Shown: piece after piece, positions 797 to 9,422 of the stretch | How the letters are laid out: each line of letters starts with the position of its first letter | How positions within the stretch are numbered: position 1 is the first letter of the stretch | IMG/VR virus record: IMGVR_UViG_2648501186_000016 | Reading direction: 5' to 3' (one strand) | Source: a virus | Lineage: Duplodnaviria; Heunggongvirae; Uroviricota; Caudoviricetes | DNA: 10,679 nucleotides | Made by a program: the position numbers and the translations under genes | Notes under the pieces: model-generated | Databases searched by the model: none | What the model saw: only the letters and a program-made list of their open reading frames with translations | Told to the model about the DNA's origin: nothing

Positions 797-1624
797 TCAG
801 GCGGCTGCACCCGCCGGTTTCTCATACTTACTGATAGTGATCTCGACCTTCCCTTTCGGGATAACCGGTCCCCACTCCACCAGCATTCTTTTCACCTGTC
901 TGTCGTCTTCCCACACACCCGCGTGGGTCAGGGCGTCAAACAGCGCCTTGTTATAGTTGTCCAGATCGCGGATCCGGTTACCCATCGCAGATACCCAGCC
1001 CGCATAGCGTTTCACACCTTCCAGCATGGTTTCGGGGTTTACCCCCTCATTCAAACGGGCTTTCCAGGCTTTGAAGGCTGCAGATTTTGAATTGCCACCA
1101 GCACGTTTGGGATATGCCAGCCATGCCTGCTCAAACTCCGGAGAGTATTCCGGTCGGTTTGAACGAACTCGCACAGACTCATCAGCAGATGCACCAACAG
1201 CTATTGGTTCATTGACTGGTTCTTTGACTGGTTCAAAAGAGTGACTGGTTCTGGGTGAATCTCCTGCATTACCCCCTGGTGCAACTCCTGCACTACCTGG
1301 TGAATTTGCTGCACCAGATAGTGAATTATTTGCACTACCCCCTAGTGAATCTCCTGCACCATCCAGATGAAGGAGATAGATATTACTTGAGTTACCTTTT
1401 TCACCTTTCCGGGTGACTTTTTTTACCAGCCCGGACTCACAAAGGGCCGCAATATGATTCATCACAGAACGTTTGCTAATCTCGCACTGGTCAGCAATAT
1501 GCTGGTAGCTGGGCCAGCACTCACCCTGATCGCTGGCATTATCAGCCAGCTTGATCAGAACCAGTTTTCGCAATGGATTACCCACTCGAATTTTCATCGC
1601 TTTAACCATCAGCGCCATACTCAT
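797..1624 (-). CDS. Phage replication initiator-like protein (N-terminal winged-helix DNA-binding domain, low-complexity linker, C-terminal domain), lambda O-like architecture
   Basis: 275-aa ORF, ATG at 1624 with GGAGG 6 nt upstream and ATGA overlap with the preceding ORF. N-terminus LRKLVLIKLADNASDQGECWPSYQHIADQCEISKRSVMNHIAALCESGLVKK looks like a wHTH replication-protein domain; the middle is a Gly/Ser/Ala/Pro-rich linker. Product assignment is by pattern recall, not search. Confidence 0.65.
   Translation of the reverse strand: MSMALMVKAMKIRVGNPLRKLVLIKLADNASDQGECWPSYQHIADQCEISKRSVMNHIAALCESGLVKKVTRKGEKGNSSNIYLLHLDGAGDSLGGSANNSLSGAANSPGSAGVAPGGNAGDSPRTSHSFEPVKEPVNEPIAVGASADESVRVRSNRPEYSPEFEQAWLAYPKRAGGNSKSAAFKAWKARLNEGVNPETMLEGVKRYAGWVSAMGNRIRDLDNYNKALFDALTHAGVWEDDRQVKRMLVEWGPVIPKGKVEITISKYEKPAGAAA
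1203..1349. repeat. Iteron-like direct repeats inside the linker-coding part of the O-like gene (candidate ori)
   Basis: TGACTGGTTC at 1213-1222, 1225-1234 and 1242-1251; GTGAATCTCCTGCA at 1255-1268 and 1335-1348; related GTGAAT...TGCAC units at about 1299-1314 and 1320-1335, giving a roughly 21-23 bp period. Confidence 0.5.
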
Positions 1625-1845: not shown

Positions 1846-2993
1846 TTGCGCCCCCTTACCTCTGAAGGGTTCAGCGACAAATTTATGAGGCAGGCCAGTG
1901 CCGAAGCATCATTAATATAGTCATACAAGCTAACAGCCAGCGGAGATTCGGCTTTTGCCAACATAGGATAAAGCTGCTGCAGCCAGACCTGATGAATTGA
2001 TGAAATGTAGGAACAGAGAACGCTGGCGTTATGTGCAACGTCGCTCGGTACAGCGGGCTTTGAAAGCTGTTTCTCCATCTGGTTAAAGGCATTGATGTAT
2101 GCCTCTTTGAACTGGGCAGCACGTTTACCCGTGAAACCCATAGCAAGAAACGCAAAGCCGTCGCGGGTTATTTGATAGCAAGGTAGTTTGCGGCCTGTGC
2201 AATCGGTGTAATCACTCACCGAAAAATTGCGGGCAGTGAATGATGCGGAACATTCAAGCGTGCGGATCTTTTTCAGTACATCGTCATGACGTTTGGAGAA
2301 GAAGTTGGCAACAGCCAGGGATGAAGTAACAGCCTGACCATCAACGATGGCAATTTCAGGTTGAGTGAGGGTTGGGATCGTAGCCATGATGGCAGCCTCT
2401 TTGGTGATTTTTAATAACTCACCACCAAGGCTTTCCACGACCTTATTGGTGGTGAGACGTACAGGGGTGGAAATACCGGTCACCAAAGAACCCGGCCCAA
2501 CCGAAGTTGGCCCTGCACGCCCCACCATAATTTGGGCGTAATGCTGCTCATGACACAAAAAAACCGCAAGAGCGCGGTTGTGCGCTTTGGTGAATTCCGG
2601 GTTTCCACGCCCGGCACCCGCTTTATAAGGTGCCTGAACAGTGTAACGTCCCGGAATGGCAGAATCAATGTGCTGGTGGTCCTTCACACTCAACAAAATC
2701 ACGCCTGAATTTCCACAAAGGACTAAAGCATTCATGCGGGTAGTCTTTGCGAAGATAGATAACGCGCTGTGTTTCTGGCTCCCAACGAATAACATGAACA
2801 TAAAGTCCTCTTCCGTCACGAAACCAGCGGTTAAGTTCCTGCACAACTCGCCCCCCACAGTCAGGTAAAGTTCTCTGTGGTTACTAACAGCCAGGTGATT
2901 TGGTAATCTGCATTCATGCCGTAACAACAGGTGTGCAGCGACACTGACCACCAGCTGTTGCGACAAACGGTTATTTGCCGTTAAACTGTTCAT
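1842..2993 (-). CDS. Rha-family phage regulatory protein with about 200-aa N-terminal extension of unknown function (alternative start at 2387 would give a 181-aa Rha-only protein)
   Basis: 383-aa ORF, ATG at 2993 overlapping the upstream TGA (ATGA). Residues about 215-300 (IVDGQAVTSSLAVANFFSKRHDDVLKKIRTL...ITRDGFAFLAMGFTGKRAAQFKEAYINAFNQMEKQL) match the Phage_pRha pattern. Internal ATG at 2387..2385 has AAAGAGG 8 nt upstream. Confidence 0.55.
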   Translation of the reverse strand: MNSLTANNRLSQQLVVSVAAHLLLRHECRLPNHLAVSNHRELYLTVGGELCRNLTAGFVTEEDFMFMLFVGSQKHSALSIFAKTTRMNALVLCGNSGVILLSVKDHQHIDSAIPGRYTVQAPYKAGAGRGNPEFTKAHNRALAVFLCHEQHYAQIMVGRAGPTSVGPGSLVTGISTPVRLTTNKVVESLGGELLKITKEAAIMATIPTLTQPEIAIVDGQAVTSSLAVANFFSKRHDDVLKKIRTLECSASFTARNFSVSDYTDCTGRKLPCYQITRDGFAFLAMGFTGKRAAQFKEAYINAFNQMEKQLSKPAVPSDVAHNASVLCSYISSIHQVWLQQLYPMLAKAESPLAVSLYDYINDASALACLINLSLNPSEVRGRK

Positions 2994-3541
2994 GCGTTAG
3001 TTTCTCCACAGACACAAAACGCCACGACGCCCGGAGCTGCACACTCGCGGGCGTCACTCTTTTCTGGAGCGCAGAAAATTTTGTAGACCAGTGCCGCATG
3101 CTCCTGGAGCTTCGAAATTGACAGATACAATTCATCATTAATTGCTGTCTGCTCGTGTGGCTCCACTACCCCATCTTCGATTGCCGAACGAATCTGCTTT
3201 GAGTAACTCCCGATCTGTTCGATGACTTCCAGCAGGCGCTGGTTTATATCTGCGTTCTCTACTTCCTCAATTTCAGGAAGCGATACAAACACCCCACCAG
3301 CAGACTGTGCGACAGCATCCGCAATGTAGTGAGTGCCAGCAGCACGCTGTAAAATCATTGCCCATCCCAGCGGGAAAATCTGATCGCCATCTGCACGAAG
3401 GCGGTTGAATAAAGCGTTCTCTGTAACATCCAGCCACTCAGCAGCTTCAGCGTAACCCCCCGGCAACGCCGCGATAGTTTTTCTGACAGCTTTCACGTAC
3501 CACTCAGGCTGTTTTTCCACTTTCCAGTGATGATTACCCAC
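2990..3541 (-). CDS. YdaT-like / CII-analogue regulatory protein (putative)
   Basis: 183-aa ORF directly downstream of the Cro-like gene, overlapping its end by 8 nt. Start is GTG at 3541..3539 with AGGAGG 6 nt upstream. Position and size fit the ydaS-ydaT type pair of Rac-like prophages; family assignment is from memory. Confidence 0.55.
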   Translation of the reverse strand: MGNHHWKVEKQPEWYVKAVRKTIAALPGGYAEAAEWLDVTENALFNRLRADGDQIFPLGWAMILQRAAGTHYIADAVAQSAGGVFVSLPEIEEVENADINQRLLEVIEQIGSYSKQIRSAIEDGVVEPHEQTAINDELYLSISKLQEHAALVYKIFCAPEKSDARECAAPGVVAFCVCGETNA

Positions 3542-3794
3542 GGCTTACCTCCTGTTCCTGTGGTTTAAACCCATTCTGGTTTTGGCTAGATTGAAAACGT
3601 GCCGGATAAAGAATCTGCATTTCGCTGATTTCACCCTTAAAAAAATTGGCCAGACGTTCTGCAAGATCGATAGATGGAATTTGTTCCAGTCTTTCAATAC
3701 GACTCAGCGTCGCTGGATTGACCTGAACGCCAGCAGCAACATGCTGCAAAGTAAATCCGTGCGCCTTACGCACATTCCGTAATGGTGATTGCAT
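3534..3794 (-). CDS. Cro-like XRE-family HTH regulator
   Basis: 86-aa ORF divergent from the repressor gene; HTH segment FTLQHVAAGVQVNPATLSRIERLE; ATG at 3794 with GGAGG just upstream. Confidence 0.7.
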   Translation of the reverse strand: MQSPLRNVRKAHGFTLQHVAAGVQVNPATLSRIERLEQIPSIDLAERLANFFKGEISEMQILYPARFQSSQNQNGFKPQEQEVSRG

Positions 3795-3805
3795 ATGACC
3801 TCCAC

Positions 3806-3885
3806 ATATTGCGTGATGAGCATATTATTTCACGCAAATATTTTGCGCAAGTTGATTTGCTTAACGCGCAATAAAGAAATGTAAT
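3806..3885. promoter_or_regulatory. Divergent PR-like / PRM-like promoters with operator palindromes (OR-like region)
   Basis: Minus strand: -35 TTGCGC (plus 3850..3845), 17-bp spacer, -10 TAATAT (plus 3827..3822). Plus strand: -35 TTGCTT 3857-3862, 17-bp spacer, -10 TGTAAT 3880-3885, placing the start about at A3892 of the repressor ATG (leaderless). Operator-like motifs: TTGC-N7-GCAA at 3857-3871, variant at 3809-3823, palindrome TTGCGCAA at 3843-3850, inverted repeat 3806-3841. Confidence 0.5.
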
Positions 3886-3891
3886 AAACGC

Positions 3892-4584
3892 ATGAACATA
3901 GGAAACCGAGTCAGACAACTTCGCCAGGCGAAGAACATGAAAATCGCCGATCTCGCTGAAGCAATAGGAGTGGATGCGGCGAATATCTCACGCCTGGAAA
4001 CAGGTAAGCAGAAACAATTCACTGAACAAGCCCTGAGTAATATTGCCAAGAGCTTAGGTGTTGATATTGCTGATCTCTTTACCTCAGACTTCAAAAGTAA
4101 TACTGTATGTAAAAACAGTATTAGTGAGGATGTTGCGCAGGTGAAGGATGTATTCCGTATTGAAATGCTGGATGTCAGTGCCAGTGCGGGAAATGGCCTT
4201 ATCCAGGGCGGTGATGTCATTGATGTGATTCATGCCATTGAATACAGAACTGATAATGCTGTATCGATGTTTGGTGGACGGCCAGCCAATCACATTAAAG
4301 TTATCAACGTTCGTGGGGACAGTATGTGTCCAACCATTGAGCCAGGAGATCTCATCTTCGTTGATGTCAGTATCAATCAGTTTGATGGAGATGGTATCTA
4401 TGTATTTGGTTTTGATGATAAAATTTATGTCAAACGACTGCAAATGATACCTGACAAACTACTGGTGATTTCTGATAACCAGATTTACCGTGAATGGGGA
4501 ATTACCAGCGAAAATGAACACCGGTTTATGGTCTTTGGAAAGGTCTTAATCAGCCAGTCACAAACCCTTAAGCGACACAATTAA
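3892..4584 (+). CDS. cI/LexA-type prophage repressor (N-terminal XRE HTH, C-terminal S24 peptidase autocleavage domain)
   Basis: 230-aa ORF. N-terminus NRVRQLRQAKNMKIADLAEAIGVDAANISRLETGK is an HTH; C-terminus has the Ser-Lys dyad context VRGDSMCPTIEPGDLIFVD ... YVKRLQ typical of S24 peptidases. No SD before the ATG, consistent with a leaderless transcript. Confidence 0.85.
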   Translation: MNIGNRVRQLRQAKNMKIADLAEAIGVDAANISRLETGKQKQFTEQALSNIAKSLGVDIADLFTSDFKSNTVCKNSISEDVAQVKDVFRIEMLDVSASAGNGLIQGGDVIDVIHAIEYRTDNAVSMFGGRPANHIKVINVRGDSMCPTIEPGDLIFVDVSINQFDGDGIYVFGFDDKIYVKRLQMIPDKLLVISDNQIYREWGITSENEHRFMVFGKVLISQSQTLKRHN

Positions 4585-4604
4585 CCCTTACCTCCTCATC
4601 AATT

Positions 4605-4626
4605 AGCCACCCAAAGGTGGCTTTTC
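4605..4626 (+). terminator. Intrinsic terminator downstream of the repressor gene
   Basis: Perfect 7-bp stem AGCCACC (4605-4611) / GGTGGCT (4616-4622) with CAAA loop, followed by TTTT, 21 nt after the repressor stop. Confidence 0.6.
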
Positions 4627-4639
4627 ATTACCCTTTAAA

Positions 4640-4692
4640 TTGCATATCTCGCAACAAAAACACTTGCATAATGCGCAACTTCATTTTATCTT
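4640..4692 (+). promoter_or_regulatory. PL-like promoter with two operator sites (OL-like)
   Basis: Two 15-bp palindromes TTGCATATCTCGCAA (4640-4654) and TTGCATAATGCGCAA (4664-4678) share the TTGC-N7-GCAA pattern seen in the OR region. Candidate -35 TTGCAT (4664-4669), 17-bp spacer, -10 TATCTT (4687-4692), reading toward the yfdP-like operon. Confidence 0.45.
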
Positions 4693-5102
4693 TCTTTCCA
4701 GACAAACAAACAAGGTACTAACAAAATTTGGTTGTAACACGGCGTATGGCACATGCGTCGTTAGCGGTCTGGGGACGTTAAAGGGGACAATCCACTCCTT
4801 GCTCGGGCAAACAAACCAGGTAGCCGGAATGTGCAAGTCAATGATGATGCTGATAAGACGCCTAACCAGCGTGGCGATTCGGTTTGACGCCTGGGAAGAG
4901 ACCAGGGTGCAACGATGAGGGCATTTATGGAGCCGCGACAAAGTGTGGTGCCGTAACTGGCTAAGTGCTCTCAGCGTTGTGGTAATCCGCGAAATGGCGC
5001 GGCGGTAAGTATGGCGGGGTTACTCTTTCCCCGTTGAGGACACCGGATTGTCAGGTTGACCATACGCCTGAGTGACAACCCCACCACAACAGCCACTGCT
5101 TT

Positions 5103-5152
5103 GGCGGTACCAGTTTGTACCCTTGCTTCCGGCTGGTACCGCTCTTTTTACA
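5103..5152 (+). terminator. Hairpin plus T-run in the early-left leader (terminator-like; 3' flank is boxA-like)
   Basis: 10-bp stem GCGGTACCAG (5104-5113) / CTGGTACCGC (5133-5142), 19-nt loop, followed by TCTTTTTA. The segment CGCTCTTTTTACAA (5140-5153) resembles the boxA consensus of nut sites and rrn antiterminators. Confidence 0.4.
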
Positions 5153-5286
5153 AAACAGAGAAGAGCATCACCGGACGACGGGCTCATAACCCAATCCATC
5201 CGGGCGGCTGCCACCGCAGGTGTTCTTCTCCGTTTTGTGGAGAAACCAACCGACCTTGCAGGGTCGATATGATGAGGAGCAGCAAA

Positions 5287-5649
5287 ATGGCTAGCGAACG
5301 CAGTACTGATGTGCAGGCATTTATTGGGGAGCTGGACGGCGGCGTATTTGAAACCAAAATCGGCGCAGTTCTCAGTGAAGTCGCTTCCGGTGTGATGAAC
5401 ACGAAAACCAAAGGTAAGGTCTCGCTCAACCTGGAAATCGAACCGTTTGATGAGAATCGTGTGAAAATCAAACACAAACTCTCGTATGTTCGCCCGACTA
5501 ACCGCGGGAAAATTTCCGAAGAAGACACCACCGAAACGCCGATGTATGTCAATCGCGGTGGTCGCCTGACTATTCTGCAGGAAGACCAGGGACAATTACT
5601 GACTCTTGCTGGTGAACCTGACGGAAAACTCCGCGCAGCAGGTCATTAA
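5287..5649 (+). CDS. yfdP: YfdP-like hypothetical protein (120 aa)
   Basis: ATG at 5287 with AGGAG at 5275-5279; the track's longer 5056 frame starts at TTG and lacks an RBS. Length and position before the YfdQ/YfdR-like genes match K-12 CPS-53 yfdP from memory; symbol is tentative. Confidence 0.55.
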   Translation: MASERSTDVQAFIGELDGGVFETKIGAVLSEVASGVMNTKTKGKVSLNLEIEPFDENRVKIKHKLSYVRPTNRGKISEEDTTETPMYVNRGGRLTILQEDQGQLLTLAGEPDGKLRAAGH

Positions 5650-6666: not shown

Positions 6667-7203
6667 ATGTCATTTATTAAAACTTTTTCCGGGAAGCATT
6701 TTTATTATGACAAGATAAATAAAAATGACATCGTTATTAACGATATCGCGGTTTCCCTTTCAAATATCTGTCGCTTTGCTGGTCATCTTTCACACTTCTA
6801 CAGCGTTGCCCAACATGCGGTGCTTTGCAGCCAGCTGGTACCACAGGAATTTGCTTTTGAAGCGTTAATGCATGATGCAACAGAAGCGTATTGTCAAGAC
6901 ATCCCCGCGCCACTGAAACACATTCTTCCTGACTATAAACGGATGGAAGAAAAAATAGACGCCGTAATCCGTGAGAAATACGGGTTACCCCCGGTTATGA
7001 GCACGCCTGTGAAATATCCCGATCTCATCATGCTCGCAACCGAACGCCGTGATCTCGGGCTTGATGATGGCTCTTTCTGGCCTGTACTGGAAGGTATCCC
7101 GGCAACAGAGATGTTCAAAGTTATTCCACAGTCGCCAGGCCATGCCTACGGGATGTTTATGGAACGCTTTAACGAGTTATCGGAGTTACGCAAATGCGCA
7201 TGA
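6667..7203 (+). CDS. yfdR: YfdR-like HD-domain phosphohydrolase (putative 5'-deoxynucleotidase family, 178 aa)
   Basis: ATG at 6667 with GGAG 6 nt upstream (the track's 6640 start is GTG without an RBS). HD signature: ...SVAQHAVLCSQ... and ...ALMHDATEAY.... Length matches K-12 YfdR. Confidence 0.75.
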   Translation: MSFIKTFSGKHFYYDKINKNDIVINDIAVSLSNICRFAGHLSHFYSVAQHAVLCSQLVPQEFAFEALMHDATEAYCQDIPAPLKHILPDYKRMEEKIDAVIREKYGLPPVMSTPVKYPDLIMLATERRDLGLDDGSFWPVLEGIPATEMFKVIPQSPGHAYGMFMERFNELSELRKCA

Positions 7204-7237
7204 GTCTTTCAACTGCACAACCATTGGAGGGGTAGCA

Positions 7238-7432
7238 ATGAACAACTTAATGACAACTAAACAGGTCGCCGACTTCTGTGGTGTTTCAATATCAACAGTG
7301 CTTCGCTGGAACAGCATAAACCATAGAACAGGTAAGAAATATAGACCAGACTTTCCTGATCCTGATATAAAATCCTGTCCCAATAAATGGGCATCACACA
7401 AGATTTATAGGTTTGCGGGTATTATCGAATAA
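7238..7432 (+). CDS. AlpA/excisionase-family small HTH DNA-binding protein (64 aa)
   Basis: Internal ATG at 7238 of track ORF 7049..7432, with GGAGG at 7226-7230. MTTKQVADFCGVSISTVLRW...RPDFPDP resembles the AlpA/Xis HTH pattern (compare AlpA ...ATIYDWL...ATFPKK). Confidence 0.65.
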   Translation: MNNLMTTKQVADFCGVSISTVLRWNSINHRTGKKYRPDFPDPDIKSCPNKWASHKIYRFAGIIE

Positions 7433-8164
7433 CATTTATTTGTTTCGATGTTAGCTGACACATCTATGGCACAGAGCAAAACCGAATATGATTGTCCACT
7501 CTGTGCTAGTAGAAAACATAGATATCAACTATCCGTACCAATCTATGAGTATAGAATAAATTAATCTGCTCGCAACTAATAGCCTCTAACAGCCAATACA
7601 GTGCCACCGATGATACAAAAAACAATACTCCAAAAAGCGTCTGGTATTGGATTGTCATTACTAGCTTCCGAGGTGAGATATGCATTAAGCCAGGTGCGCT
7701 GGAAAAGTTATGTTTCCCTAATGGAATTGCCCATGACTCAACATATTTTTTCTCTGTTGCTAGCGAATAGACCTAAAATGATAAGCACCATTAACATCAA
7801 CAGCGCCCCCTTGAGCTCTTCTTTTCGGTGAAAAGCCCATCATCAACGGCGCATTGCCTAACCCGAATTCTAGCCACCTTAGCCAGTATTTACCCCCTAG
7901 ATACCAAATGCTTACCCCTCTATTTGCTCTGATAATACTTTATTGCATAATCCCTCACTACATTAGACACTGCGTCAATCCTGCCTTCTATAGCTTGTTT
8001 TAACGCTTTCGGCACATTCCTCTGAACCAGCCCAAGATATGGCTGTTAAATTTTTACTTACATTCAAAAAAACTTTAACTTTTGCAATCAGATCATATGA
8101 TGTTGTTAATGGTAATATTCTGAATCTAAAATGACTTAAGAGTTCGTAGGTTAGAGGGACATGT

Positions 8165-9184
8165 ATGACTTCTGAAAGCAACAGAATTGGGAAGATGGGT
8201 GTAAACTACATAGAAGGTGTATTGACAAGATGGGGATGGGGATATCAATCAATTTCGCAAGAAAATGATGATGGGTTTGATGGCTTAATATATATAAGAT
8301 CTAAACGATTTGAGGCGAAAGATAAAGAAAACCGGAGTAAACAATCTTGGGAGTTCACTGGTGGGTTGATTCATGTACAAGTAAAAAGTGGAGATACATA
8401 CATTAGTAGTCGTAATAAAGATGAAATAAGGATCAAAATAAAAAACCTCAATGAAAAGAAGAAAATATGGTCTAGATCGTCTATTCCATGCATACTTGTA
8501 TTTGTTTTTTGGGATCATAATGAAGTTGAGTATTCCTACTGGGCTGATCTTAAATCTGAATTAACTTATTGTGATAACAGTAGTACGCTAATAAAAATCC
8601 CCTTAAAAAATAGATTTATGAGATCCCAAGAGTGTAAGGGGCCTTTAAGACGACTTGCAAGGGTATCGGCCAACTATGCAGATAAGCCGCTGATAGATTT
8701 ATCAAAATTTGACTCATTAAGTGGTAAGCTACCTACAAGTCTAAACAGTAACCTAAATTGTTCTTTGAAAAAGAAAGGTATTGAATTCTATCAGAAATGG
8801 CGATTAATTGGGGCTACAAACCCTTATTTTGGTCCTGTTCTAATAAACAGAACTGGTTGGAGTCATATAACTCGACGAAATCGCCCAATAGCAAGAATTG
8901 AAGCAAGCTTTAATTTGTTACCTTTAGCAGCAAGAATTATAAATGATGTATCTACATGGCGAATGTTAACACCCGTACGACGGTATGATAATAGAAAGGA
9001 TGGTTATGTTTGCTTTATAGATTTCGTTGGGTTAACAGCCAAAGTGAATTTAAAGAATCGCAACTCATCAGAAGTTATGGTTGTGTTAAAAAGGGAGAGG
9101 AGGTATAAACAGGGTGAAGACTGTTCCTCTGCGAAAACAAGATTATGGTTTTACACTGTTTATGAACCTGGAAGAGGAAAATAA
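8165..9184 (+). CDS. Cargo protein with N-terminal Mrr/DUF4365-like PD-(D/E)xK nuclease-fold domain and uncharacterised C-terminal domain; candidate anti-phage defense or Abi effector
   Basis: 339-aa ORF, ATG at 8165 with AGAGGG 6 nt upstream. N-terminus IGKMGVNYIEGVLTRWGWGYQSISQENDDGFDGLIYI...GGLIHVQVKSGDTYI...IPCILVFVFWDHNEVEYSYWADL fits the DUF4365/Mrr pattern (G-rich start, GW, D-x-GxDG, QxK, hydrophobic strand plus YW). Gene is about 32% GC in two hand-counted 60-bp samples versus about 50% in flanks. Confidence 0.75.
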   Translation: MTSESNRIGKMGVNYIEGVLTRWGWGYQSISQENDDGFDGLIYIRSKRFEAKDKENRSKQSWEFTGGLIHVQVKSGDTYISSRNKDEIRIKIKNLNEKKKIWSRSSIPCILVFVFWDHNEVEYSYWADLKSELTYCDNSSTLIKIPLKNRFMRSQECKGPLRRLARVSANYADKPLIDLSKFDSLSGKLPTSLNSNLNCSLKKKGIEFYQKWRLIGATNPYFGPVLINRTGWSHITRRNRPIARIEASFNLLPLAARIINDVSTWRMLTPVRRYDNRKDGYVCFIDFVGLTAKVNLKNRNSSEVMVVLKRERRYKQGEDCSSAKTRLWFYTVYEPGRGK

Positions 9185-9393
9185 ATTGAGGCGGTACAAT
9201 CGCGCTCAGGCTGTCCCAGACGTGATGCATAACACCACCGGTTCCAGAATTTAAGGATCTGGACCTTCAATTATGCGTGTACCGCCTTATGCAACAATAC
9301 TATAAAATTATTAAACGTCAAGATGTTCAATAAGATTTGGGCTTTCATGCCACAACACGAAAGTTCATTTTATAACGTCTAAAGCTTTCACAA

Positions 9394-9422
9394 TGTCCGC
9401 TTTTCGCAGCTCAAAGCGGACA
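9394..9422. terminator. Inverted repeat between convergent cargo and integrase genes (possible bidirectional terminator)
   Basis: 10-bp stem TGTCCGCTTT (9394-9403) / AAAGCGGACA (9413-9422) with 9-nt loop; flanks are only moderately U-rich on either strand. Confidence 0.3.

What the first reader, a model, noticed from the sequence alone, without database searches (positions are those of the whole stretch)
3806..4692. Shared TTGC-N7-GCAA operator motif at both the cro/repressor intergenic region and the PL-like promoter
Perfect 15-bp palindrome-type sites occur at 3857-3871, 4640-4654 and 4664-4678, with variants at 3809-3823 and the TTGCGCAA palindrome at 3843-3850. They overlap the predicted -35 elements of the divergent promoters and of the PL-like promoter. 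That is the OR/OL logic of an intact lambda-like immunity switch. The S24 peptidase domain of the repressor implies RecA-stimulated autocleavage and SOS inducibility. The repressor transcript looks leaderless.
Basis: partly seen in the sequence, partly recalled or inferred. Interest (0 to 1): 0.5.

Follow-up and report, generated by a model that had tools for sequence, protein, structure and literature searches.

The report
Prophage repressor operators flanking cI
The repeated TTGC-N7-GCAA sites are real and are almost certainly the binding sites of this E. coli prophage's own CI/Cro repressors, so this is an ordinary lambda/434-style lysogeny switch of a common immunity type whose operators had simply not been written down.

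Summary
Observation confirmed. Exact TTGC-N7-GCAA occurs 4 times in the window (0.38 expected). Three sites lie in the two short non-coding stretches flanking the cI-like gene, at exactly the stated coordinates. The fourth (2188) is chance.

A matrix built only from distant relatives (cI under 85% identical) picks out 4664, 4640, 3809 and 3857 as the four top sites in the window. The layout is fixed across 85 distinct OR and 111 distinct OL regions. Half-sites, the promoter hexamers and the spacings are invariant, while the operator centres drift.

A heteroimmune phage (cdtI) shares both flanks but carries a different cro-cI cassette, and it has no such site.

The repressor has an HTH_3 domain plus an S24 domain, with Ala99-Gly100, Ser144 and Lys181. 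TGTAAT sits 6 nt before the cI ATG with no Shine-Dalgarno, which fits a leaderless cI mRNA.

The kind of system is known. The same cassette is in phages mEp460 and SfII and in about 1,040 of 5,426 complete E. coli genomes. I found no published description of its operators.

Nuances:
- The central OR site is only a half-site here.
- OL has two sites, not three.
- A possible fourth site lies inside cro.
- The prophage carries a replication-gene deletion.

Side lead: the PL-like promoter first transcribes an apparently undescribed structured RNA that is also present in phage P1.

The parts
3570..4719 (.). Exchangeable immunity cassette: cro, OR, cI, terminator, OL/PL
   Evidence: Phage cdtI matches the window up to 3569 (95%) and from 4720 (100%), but carries an unrelated cro-cI pair in between. 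The same two-piece pattern is seen with e14-type ymfK/ymfT loci.
3534..3794 (-). cro-like gene (86 aa, HTH_3), with Shine-Dalgarno GGAGG at 3804-3800
   Evidence: Pfam HTH_3 5.8e-10. Homologous to the CI N-terminal domain: 26% identity, E 2e-5, with a similar recognition helix. Annotated Cro in SfII and PhiR63_1.
3759..3773 (.). Candidate fourth operator inside cro codons 8-12 (GTGCGCCTTACGCAC); weak in this window
   Evidence: TTGCG-N5-CGCAA or one mismatch at the same register in the distant relatives. TGCG (3760-3763) and CGCA (3769-3772) are invariant, including the synonymous third-codon positions 3762 and 3771. The window copy scores only 6.1 bits, which is at the null median.
3809..3823 (.). 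O_R1-like operator TTGCGTGATGAGCAT; covers the PR -10 and predicted start (about 3815)
   Evidence: 16.5 bits with the matrix from distant relatives. Always TTGC-N7-GCAT at -83 from the cI ATG. The terminal T doubles as a base of the PR -10.
3822..3827 (-). Predicted PR -10 (TAATAT on the minus strand)
   Evidence: TAATAT, TAACAT or TAAAAT in the relatives, 17 nt from the -35 in 74 of 82 scored. Conserved columns. Not called by the simple scanner.
3836..3850 (.). O_R2-like position: only the right half-site (CGCAA 3846-3850) is kept here. It is embedded in the invariant TTGCGCAAGT (3843-3852), which also supplies the PR -35 (TTGCGC, minus strand 3850-3845)
   Evidence: In distant relatives the 15-mer at this register reads T[T/A/G][G/A]C-N7-GCAA. 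TTGCGCAAGT is invariant in all 85 distinct ORs. Centre distances of 27 bp to O_R1 and 21 bp to O_R3 hold in 84 of 84. The left half in the window is AAAT, four mismatches.
3857..3871 (.). O_R3-like operator TTGCTTAACGCGCAA; its first 6 nt are the predicted PRM -35
   Evidence: Exact motif at -35/-36 from the cI ATG in every relative, with varying centres. 15.5 bits. 17-nt spacer to TGTAAT in 85 of 85.
3880..3885 (+). Predicted PRM -10 (TGTAAT), placing +1 on the A of the cI ATG (3892)
   Evidence: Invariant in 85 distinct ORs. Gap to the ATG is 6 nt in 82 and 7 nt in 3. No SD-like tetramer in 0 of 85.
3892..4584 (+). cI-like repressor, 230 aa: HTH_3 domain (residues about 3-64), linker with Ala99-Gly100, S24 peptidase domain with Ser144 and Lys181
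   Evidence: Pfam Peptidase_S24 6.5e-19 and HTH_3 9.3e-11. Motif positions and family conservation. Annotated cI in SfII and PhiR63_1. Residues 1-15 are conserved as protein, so ATG 3892 is the start rather than the Met16 used in the mEp460 record.
4605..4630 (+). Intrinsic terminator ending the cI transcript
   Evidence: 7-bp G+C stem plus T run. An equivalent hairpin precedes OL in the relatives. Annotated as a terminator in SfII.
4640..4654 (.). O_L2-like operator TTGCATATCTCGCAA (promoter-distal)
   Evidence: Exact motif. 18.0-18.5 bits. 111 of 116 distinct downstream regions have two sites, with centres 22-24 bp apart.
4664..4678 (.). O_L1-like operator TTGCATAATGCGCAA; its first 6 nt are the predicted PL -35
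   Evidence: Best hit in the window, 20.5 bits. Conserved position.
4687..4692 (+). Predicted PL -10 (TATCTT), start near 4699
   Evidence: TATCTT lies 17 nt after the TTGCNN of O_L1 in 95 of 111 distinct regions; the rest read TATTGT, TATTTT and similar.
4741..4908 (+). First conserved element of the PL transcript: a structured RNA. It lies outside the exchangeable cassette and is listed because PL/OL would control it
   Evidence: Four helices, 97.6% of cells paired against 30-48% when slid, 10 pairs with compensatory change. No Rfam match.

Best explanation
The sites are the cognate operators of the prophage's CI repressor, and probably also of its homologous Cro. The family consensus is the 15-bp palindrome TTGCGTA-A-TACGCAA, and TTGC-N7-GCAA is its invariant core.

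Inferred mechanism:
- In the lysogen, CI dimers occupy O_R1 (3809-3823, over the PR -10 and start) and the O_R2 position (half-site at 3846-3850, over the PR -35). This shuts off cro, the cII-like gene, the Rha-like gene and the replication genes.
- CI also occupies O_L1 and O_L2 (4664-4678 and 4640-4654). This shuts off the leftward PL-like promoter, whose -35 is the TTGC arm of O_L1.
- O_R3 (3857-3871) overlaps the -35 and spacer of the cI promoter, so CI or Cro bound there would limit cI synthesis.
- cI mRNA starts at or next to its AUG, as with lambda PRM.
- After DNA damage, RecA* would stimulate self-cleavage at Ala99-Gly100 by the Ser144/Lys181 dyad. That separates the DNA-binding domain from the dimerisation domain and releases PR and PL.

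Shown here: the sites, their enrichment, their conservation and fixed geometry, their co-inheritance with the cI/cro cassette, and the domain and catalytic-motif content. Inferred: promoter assignments, occupancy order, cooperativity, autoregulation and SOS induction.
For: - Enrichment: 4 exact sites against 0.38 expected, three of them in the two cI-flanking intergenic regions.
- A matrix from distant relatives only recovers exactly 4664, 4640, 3809 and 3857 as the window's top four sites at 15.5-20.5 bits. The next best scores 6.1.
- The motif sits at -35 from the cI ATG in all relatives down to 66% protein identity, with different central bases.
- The information profile shows invariant half-sites and promoter hexamers against variable centres and spacers.
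- Two OL sites occur in 111 of 116 distinct downstream regions.
- Spacings are fixed: PRM spacer 17 nt, site centres 27 and 21 bp apart, OL centres 22-24 bp apart.
- Natural swap control: cdtI has the same flanks and a different cro-cI, and contains no site with one mismatch or fewer.
- CI has HTH_3 plus S24, with an invariant AG, GDSM and VKRL and a highly conserved helix-turn-helix.
- Cro is a homologue of the CI N-terminal domain.
- The same cassette is carried by the isolated temperate phages mEp460 and SfII.
Against: - There is no binding, footprint, reporter or induction data for this repressor type in the searched literature, and no close solved structure.
- The consensus promoter scanner did not report PR, PRM or PL. 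It reported a different plus-strand candidate instead, TCCACA-16-TATTAT at 3801-3828.
- The central OR site is only a half-site in this window.
- The best consensus match in OR lies over the cI promoter and not over PR. This is the reverse of lambda's affinity order, if match to consensus tracks affinity.
- Null simulations show that a single hit of 16 bits or more arises in about 5% of random 10.7-kb sequences. The case therefore rests on the cluster and the conservation, not on any one site.
Confidence: 0.85

Rival explanations
1. The switch uses the same operators but is not wired like lambda. O_R3 would be the tightest site, giving strong negative autoregulation of a constitutively decent PRM (TTGCTT/TGTAAT) with no OR2-type activation. 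The intragenic site in cro (3759-3773), together with the two OL sites, would act through higher-order or looped complexes, as with the TP901-1 O_D site or 186-type looping.
For: O_R3 is the only exact core match in OR, and it covers -35 to -21 of PRM. The O_R2 position is centred near -49 from the cI start, whereas lambda OR2 is near -42 (the lambda figure is from my own knowledge). Its left half is degenerate here. The site inside cro keeps invariant TGCG/CGCA, including two synonymous positions, and is an exact motif in some relatives. OL has two sites rather than three.
Against: Match to consensus is not affinity. The cro site is weak in this window at 6.1 bits, the null median, and lies on conserved Cro residues (L/V-R-x-S/A-H/Q).
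Confidence: 0.3
2. The conserved TTGC blocks are conserved mainly as -35 promoter elements, or as sites for Cro or another factor, and CI recognises something else.
For: In all three predicted promoters the -35 hexamer begins with TTGC. Cro is an HTH_3 homologue of the CI N-terminal domain and could be the main reader.
Against: The GCAA/CGCAA arm is equally invariant at a fixed 7-nt distance, although it falls in promoter spacers or upstream DNA where a promoter imposes no constraint. O_L2 and O_R1 are not -35 elements. The motif disappears when the cI/cro pair is swapped, even though the promoter positions are retained. No other repeated motif is conserved in OR or OL.
Confidence: 0.07
3. The repeats are a chance feature of AT-rich intergenic DNA.
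For: The one-mismatch pattern is not enriched in the window. One exact match (2188) is evidently chance.
Against: 0 of 200 shuffles reach 4 exact matches. Register and geometry are identical in 85 distinct ORs and 111 distinct OLs.
Confidence: 0.01

Closest known systems
Phage lambda immunity region (cI-PRM/OR/PR-cro plus OL/PL)
   Same: Divergent cI and cro genes. Inverted-repeat operators overlap PR and PRM. A second operator cluster lies over a leftward early promoter downstream of cI and in the same orientation. The repressor carries a LexA-like S24 autocleavage domain with Ala-Gly, Ser and Lys. The cI start codon sits at the predicted transcription start.
   Different: Operators are 15 bp (TTGCGTA-N-TACGCAA) rather than 17 bp. 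OL has two sites, not three. The central OR site is degenerate and is spaced 27 and 21 bp from its neighbours rather than 24 and 23 (lambda values from my own knowledge). Cro is a homologue of the CI N-terminal domain, which is not so in lambda. A terminator follows cI directly, with no rex genes. There is no N gene: PL first transcribes a structured RNA, and SfII-type phages are reported to lack N, cII and cIII homologues (PMC3851460).
Phage 434 and P22 immunity regions (established knowledge, not tested here)
   Same: The CI N-terminal domain and Cro are both of the HTH_3 (Cro/C1) type and are related to each other. Operators have conserved 4-bp outer arms around a variable centre (434: ACAA-N6-TTGT). 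A designed 434-derived domain (1sq8) is among the weak PDB hits.
   Different: Different half-site sequence and length. Sequence similarity to 434 is marginal (E 5.7e-4).
Phages mEp460, SfII, PhiR63_1, Stx2a_1447 and 1720a-02: the same immunity type
   Same: The cro-OR-cI-OL cassette is 91-98.6% identical in DNA. The same sites are present in SfII and mEp460. It covers at least 80% of the query in 1,040 of 5,426 complete E. coli genomes.
   Different: None in kind. Those records annotate the genes and one terminator but no operators or promoters. The mEp460 record starts cI at Met16.
TP901-1 CI with its O_D site inside the first lytic gene (established knowledge)
   Same: A conserved operator-like site lies about 50 bp downstream of the lytic promoter start, inside the cro-type gene.
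   Different: TP901-1 CI lacks an S24 domain and forms hexamers. The site here is weak in this window and is unproven.

Membership tests
Lambdoid CI/Cro immunity switch | Divergently transcribed HTH repressor and cro genes separated by a short regulatory region | tested here: met
   cI is 3892-4584 (+) and cro is 3794-3534 (-), with 97 bp between the start codons.
Lambdoid CI/Cro immunity switch | Repeated inverted-repeat operators in that region, overlapping both divergent promoters | tested here: met
   Sites at 3809-3823 and 3857-3871, plus a half-site at 3846-3850, coincide with the conserved hexamers TAATAT, TTGCGC, TTGCTT and TGTAAT. The promoters are predicted, not mapped.
Lambdoid CI/Cro immunity switch | A second operator cluster (OL) over an early promoter on the far side of cI | tested here: met
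   4640-4654 and 4664-4678 follow the cI terminator, with TTGCAT-17-TATCTT. The pair is conserved in 111 of 116 distinct relatives.
Lambdoid CI/Cro immunity switch | Operators are specific to the repressor: a heteroimmune relative carries different sites | tested here: met
   cdtI has the same flanks and a different cro-cI, and contains no TTGC-N7-GCAA site even with one mismatch allowed.
Lambdoid CI/Cro immunity switch | Three OR sites with graded affinity and pairwise cooperativity, giving bistability | tested here: inconclusive
   Two full sites plus one invariant half-site at fixed 27 and 21 bp centre spacing. Affinities and cooperativity cannot be computed.
Lambdoid CI/Cro immunity switch | The repressor binds the sites, represses PR and PL, and confers immunity | not testable with these tools
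   Needs EMSA or footprinting, reporter fusions and superinfection tests. None was found in the literature searched.
LexA/CI-type S24 self-cleaving repressors | S24 domain with the Ser-Lys dyad and an Ala-Gly (or Cys-Gly) cleavage site in the linker | tested here: met
   PF00717 at 68.2 bits. Ala99-Gly100 in SASAGNG, Ser144 in GDSM and Lys181 in VKRL are all invariant in 75 distinct family proteins.
LexA/CI-type S24 self-cleaving repressors | RecA*-stimulated cleavage and SOS induction | not testable with these tools
   Inference from the motifs only.
Leaderless cI mRNA (lambda PRM type) | The -10 element is placed so that +1 is the A of AUG, with no Shine-Dalgarno | tested here: met
   TGTAAT-N6-ATG in 82 of 85 and N7 in 3. 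An SD-like tetramer is present in 0 of 85. Residues 1-15 are conserved as protein. The transcription start itself is not mapped.

The most novel reading that the evidence does not exclude
The left arm of this switch (O_L1/O_L2 and the PL-like promoter) does not begin with a protein gene. It begins with a structured RNA of about 170 nt (window 4741-4908), possibly part of a transcript of about 450 nt that ends at the long hairpin and U-run at 5104-5150. This RNA belongs to a family that is absent from Rfam 15 and from the literature I could search. Copies are widespread in temperate enterobacterial phages, including P1 and P7 (between trnI and ban), phiV10, SPN1S, cdtI and Stx2c phages. In phages that lack N, it could be a cis-acting antiterminator needed to read through the 5104-5150 terminator, or a trans-acting RNA released on induction.
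Probability: 0.45. Interest if true: 0.6.

Novelty: new member of a known kind. Interest (0 to 1): 0.2.

Why it matters
This immunity type is common. The cassette covers at least 80% of the query in 1,040 of 5,426 complete E. coli genomes, and it is carried by Stx2a-converting and Shigella serotype-converting phages. Knowing its operator (TTGCGTA-N-TACGCAA), its promoter layout and the cassette boundaries (3570-4719) has practical uses:
- predicting cross-immunity among these prophages;
- correcting the cI start used in the mEp460 record;
- designing reporters or induction-proof mutants (changes at Ala99/Gly100, Ser144 or Lys181).

Conceptually it adds nothing to the lambda/434 paradigm. The open points are the degenerate middle site, the possible intragenic site in cro, and the structured RNA at the head of the PL transcript.

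Tried and rejected
- One-mismatch scan of the window: not enriched (11 found, 7.3 expected), so it cannot support the variant site on its own.
- The exact match at 2188-2202: rejected as an operator. It scores 1.5 bits with the family matrix, has a G+C-rich centre and lies inside an ORF.
- The scanner's plus-strand promoter TCCACA-16-TATTAT (3801-3828): kept only as an unexcluded alternative cI promoter. Its hexamers coincide with the cro SD and the PR -10, which explains their conservation.
- A viral-contig scan with the window's CI returned only 99-100% identical copies. A scan with the Klebsiella homologue was needed to obtain diversity.
- PDB sequence search: only marginal hits to UmuD, ClgR and a 434-derived design. 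NCBIfam gave no specific family for CI or Cro.
- Literature: nothing on operators of mEp460- or SfII-type immunity, and no hits for the operator strings.
- Leader RNA:
  - Rfam gave nothing at the gathering or E-value thresholds.
  - The 29-codon ORF starting at 4829 (MCKS...) is not kept in frame in relatives, and no consistent ORF follows the element.
  - There is no similarity to the HK022 nun-cI segment, where putL should lie.
  - Resemblances to RNase P conserved motifs were noticed by eye but are not supported by Rfam.
  - Whole-region MFE z-score is only -1.68.
Full report
**What is in the window**

The window is part of an SfV/SfII/mEp460-type prophage of E. coli. On the plus strand lies a 230-aa repressor gene (3892-4584) with HTH_3 and Peptidase_S24 domains. 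An 86-aa HTH_3 cro-like gene diverges from it (3794-3534). Downstream of cro come a YmfL/CP76 'cII-like' gene, a Rha-like gene and a replication gene. A G+C hairpin plus T run ends the cI transcript at 4605-4630.

Window 3400-4800 is 97-98.6% identical to phages PhiR63_1 and mEp460, 96% to Stx2a-converting phages and 91% to Shigella phage SfII. It is covered at 80% or more in 1,040 of 5,426 complete E. coli genomes. The SfII and mEp460 records inspected annotate cI, cro and, in SfII, a terminator, but no operators or promoters.

**Checking the observation**

Exact TTGC-N7-GCAA occurs four times against 0.38 expected, and none of 200 shuffles reaches four. Three matches sit in the two short non-coding stretches on either side of cI. 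With one mismatch allowed the pattern is no longer enriched (11 against 7.3). The 'variant' at 3809 therefore could not be justified from the window alone.

**Independent test by comparison**

I collected cI relatives from three sources:
- genomes, at 66-97% protein identity, from Citrobacter, Klebsiella, Trabulsiella, Buttiauxella and Pseudescherichia;
- 80 near-identical viral contigs;
- 80 diverse viral contigs, found with the Klebsiella homologue.

An exact TTGC-N7-GCAA lies 35-36 nt before the cI ATG in all of the first ten relatives, with different central bases. The 85 distinct OR sequences share one architecture. A weighted information profile projected on the window shows invariant columns at:
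- 3809-3813 and 3820-3823 (TTGCG...GCAT);
- 3843-3852 (TTGCGCAAGT);
- 3856-3860 and 3867-3871 (TTGC...CGCAA);
- 3880-3885 (TGTAAT);
- 3760-3763 and 3769-3772, inside cro.

The operator centres and the stretch 3828-3842 are free to vary.

Downstream of cI, 111 of 116 distinct sequences have two sites with one mismatch or fewer just after the terminator. A position weight matrix built only from relatives whose CI is under 85% identical to the window's gives the palindromic consensus TTGCGTA-A-TACGCAA. It ranks 4664, 4640, 3809 and 3857 as the four best sites in the whole window, at 15.5-20.5 bits. The next is 3759 at 6.1 bits, and the stray exact match at 2188 drops to 1.5. The null maximum per random 10.7-kb sequence has a median of 7.1 and a 95th percentile of 16.1. 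The argument therefore rests on four clustered, position-conserved hits and not on any single score.

**A natural swap control**

Phage cdtI matches the window up to 3569 (95%) and again from 4720 (100%). Between these points it carries an unrelated cro-cI pair. Its 2.5-kb locus has no TTGC-N7-GCAA site even with one mismatch allowed, and it shows different repeats. The motif therefore travels with the cI/cro cassette (3570-4719). This is what is expected of cognate operators, and it is how lambdoid immunity regions are known to be exchanged.

**Promoters and geometry (inferred)**

The conserved hexamers fit three sigma-70 promoters, each with a 17-nt spacer:
- PRM: TTGCTT 3857-3862 and TGTAAT 3880-3885.
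- PR (minus strand): TTGCGC 3850-3845 and TAATAT 3827-3822.
- PL: TTGCAT 4664-4669 and TATCTT 4687-4692.

Across relatives the PRM spacer is 17 nt in 85 of 85. The PR -10 reads TAATAT, TAACAT or TAAAAT. TATCTT follows O_L1 at the right distance in 95 of 111.

The simple scanner did not call these promoters. It proposed TCCACA-16-TATTAT (3801-3828, plus strand) instead. I regard that as a by-product of the cro SD and the PR -10, but I cannot exclude it.

Relative to a PR start near 3815, O_R1 covers -8 to +7 and the O_R2 position covers -35 to -21. Relative to the cI start, O_R3 covers -35 to -21. Site centres are 27 and 21 bp apart in 84 of 84 distinct ORs, and the OL centres are 22-24 bp apart. 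The terminal T of O_R1 (GCAT rather than GCAA) is explained by its overlap with the PR -10.

**Leaderless cI**

TGTAAT is followed by 6 nt and then ATG in 82 of 85 distinct relatives, and by 7 nt in the other 3. None has GGAG, GAGG, AGGA or AAGG in the 15 nt before the ATG. Residues 1-15 are conserved as protein, and the HTH_3 profile starts at residue 7. ATG 3892 is therefore the start, not the Met16 used in the mEp460 record. This places +1 on the A of AUG, as for lambda PRM (the lambda comparison is from established knowledge).

**The repressor**

Ala99-Gly100 (SASAGNG), Ser144 (GDSM) and Lys181 (VKRL) are present and invariant in 75 distinct family proteins. The helix-turn-helix segment (about residues 17-42) is the best conserved part of the N-terminal domain, and the linker is the least conserved region. 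RecA-stimulated self-cleavage is a reasonable inference, but it is not shown.

Cro is a detectable homologue of the CI N-terminal domain (26% identity, E 2e-5; AANISRLE against PATLSRIE). In this respect the system resembles 434 and P22 more than lambda.

**Where it departs from the textbook**

1. In this window the middle OR site keeps only its right arm (CGCAA 3846-3850). The left arm reads AAAT. In distant relatives the same register reads T[T/A/G][G/A]C-N7-GCAA.
2. The only exact core match in OR lies over the cI promoter and not over PR.
3. OL has two sites, not three.
4. A site-like element sits inside cro codons 8-12 (3759-3773). It is an exact motif in some relatives, and its two synonymous third-codon positions (3762 and 3771) are invariant while neighbouring ones vary. 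The window copy is weak.

These points leave room for wiring that differs from lambda, such as strong autorepression, or looping as with the TP901-1 O_D site. I rate that at about 0.3.

**Comparison and novelty**

The kind of system is known, and the same DNA is in sequenced phages. I found no description of these operators in the searchable literature. That covered mEp460, SfII and serotype-converting phage papers, and literal operator strings. There is no close solved structure. I file it as a new member of a known kind, of low interest.

**Noticed beyond the finding**

The PL-like promoter does not lead into a gene. In distant relatives a conserved element begins a few bases after the predicted start. 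In the window it lies at 4741-4908.

- Its 18-mer GTAGCCGGAATGTGCAAG hits more than 120 viral contigs.
- An alignment of 34 copies, each under 93% identical to the others, supports four helices. 97.6% of cells are paired, against 30-48% when partners are slid. Ten pairs show compensatory changes, in 74 cells.
- Invariant U-G pairs indicate the plus strand, which is the PL direction.
- Rfam 15 has no match.
- No ORF is conserved in or after it.
- The element also follows other immunity regions, and it lies unannotated between trnI and ban in phages P1 and P7.
- In the window it is followed by a 12-bp hairpin plus U run (5104-5150) ahead of the first ORF at 5287.
- SfII-type phages are reported to lack N (PMC3851460), which makes a cis-acting antiterminator one hypothesis. 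There is no similarity to the HK022 nun-cI segment, where putL should lie.

Two further observations:
- Rfam finds C4 antisense RNA and isrK at 2445-2633 (minus strand), inside the 383-codon 'Rha' ORF. The Pfam Phage_ASH match covers those same RNAs.
- The replication gene (1624-797) is a deletion fusion. Residues 1-216 match the mEp460 replication protein at 99%, and residues 216-275 match the last 60 residues of SfII RusA at 95%. The prophage is therefore probably defective, even though its switch looks intact.

Noticed in passing
window 4741-4908 (+); also L291 (phage P1 NC_005856) about 1522-1700, and loci L171-L290: A conserved structured RNA of about 170 nt lies immediately downstream of the PL-like promoter. 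Four helices are supported by covariation (97.6% of cells paired against 30-48% when slid; 10 pairs with compensatory changes). It is absent from Rfam 15 and from the searched literature. It is present in more than 120 viral contigs, and lies unannotated between trnI and ban in P1 and P7. Function unknown.
   Followed up: partly
window 4913-5150 (+): The non-coding stretch continues. A helix pairs GAGGGCATT (4915-4923) with AGTGCTCTC (4981-4989) around a variable insert. The conserved GTTGTGGTAAT (4993-5003) follows, and then a 12-bp hairpin plus U run at 5104-5150, before the first ORF at 5287. A terminator inside the PL leader implies regulated read-through.
   Followed up: partly
window 3759-3773: An operator-like GTGCGCCTTACGCAC lies inside cro codons 8-12. 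It is an exact TTGCG-N5-CGCAA in some distant relatives, and two synonymous codon positions are invariant. It may be a fourth, intragenic operator.
   Followed up: partly
window 2445-2532 (-) and 2557-2633 (-): Rfam C4 antisense RNA (83.6 bits) and isrK (67 bits) lie inside the 383-codon ORF 1842-2993, which phage records annotate as Rha or antirepressor. The Pfam Phage_ASH match (residues 117-213) falls on these RNA genes, so the real Rha protein probably starts near Met214. This looks like a P1/Gifsy-type antisense-controlled antirepressor module in the PR operon.
   Followed up: no
window 797-1624 (-): The replication gene is a deletion fusion. Residues 1-216 are 99% identical to the mEp460 replication protein (272 aa), and residues 216-275 are 95% identical to the C-terminal 60 residues of SfII RusA. 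The genes that lie between them in mEp460 and SfII (dam and others) are missing, so the prophage is probably replication-defective.
   Followed up: yes
window about 7200-9400: An AT-rich island (33-42% G+C against about 50% elsewhere) holds a DUF4365 protein gene (8165-9184). It lies between the early-left genes (YfdQ-like DUF2303, YfdR-like HD) and an integrase gene (10679-9456) that is transcribed towards the immunity region, opposite to the int orientation in SfII. It is probably cargo.
   Followed up: no
L002 (mEp460) 4538-5185: The mEp460 GenBank record starts the repressor at Met16, which would delete helix 1 of the HTH domain. Conservation of residues 1-15 and the Pfam alignment favour the upstream ATG (window 3892).
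   Followed up: yes
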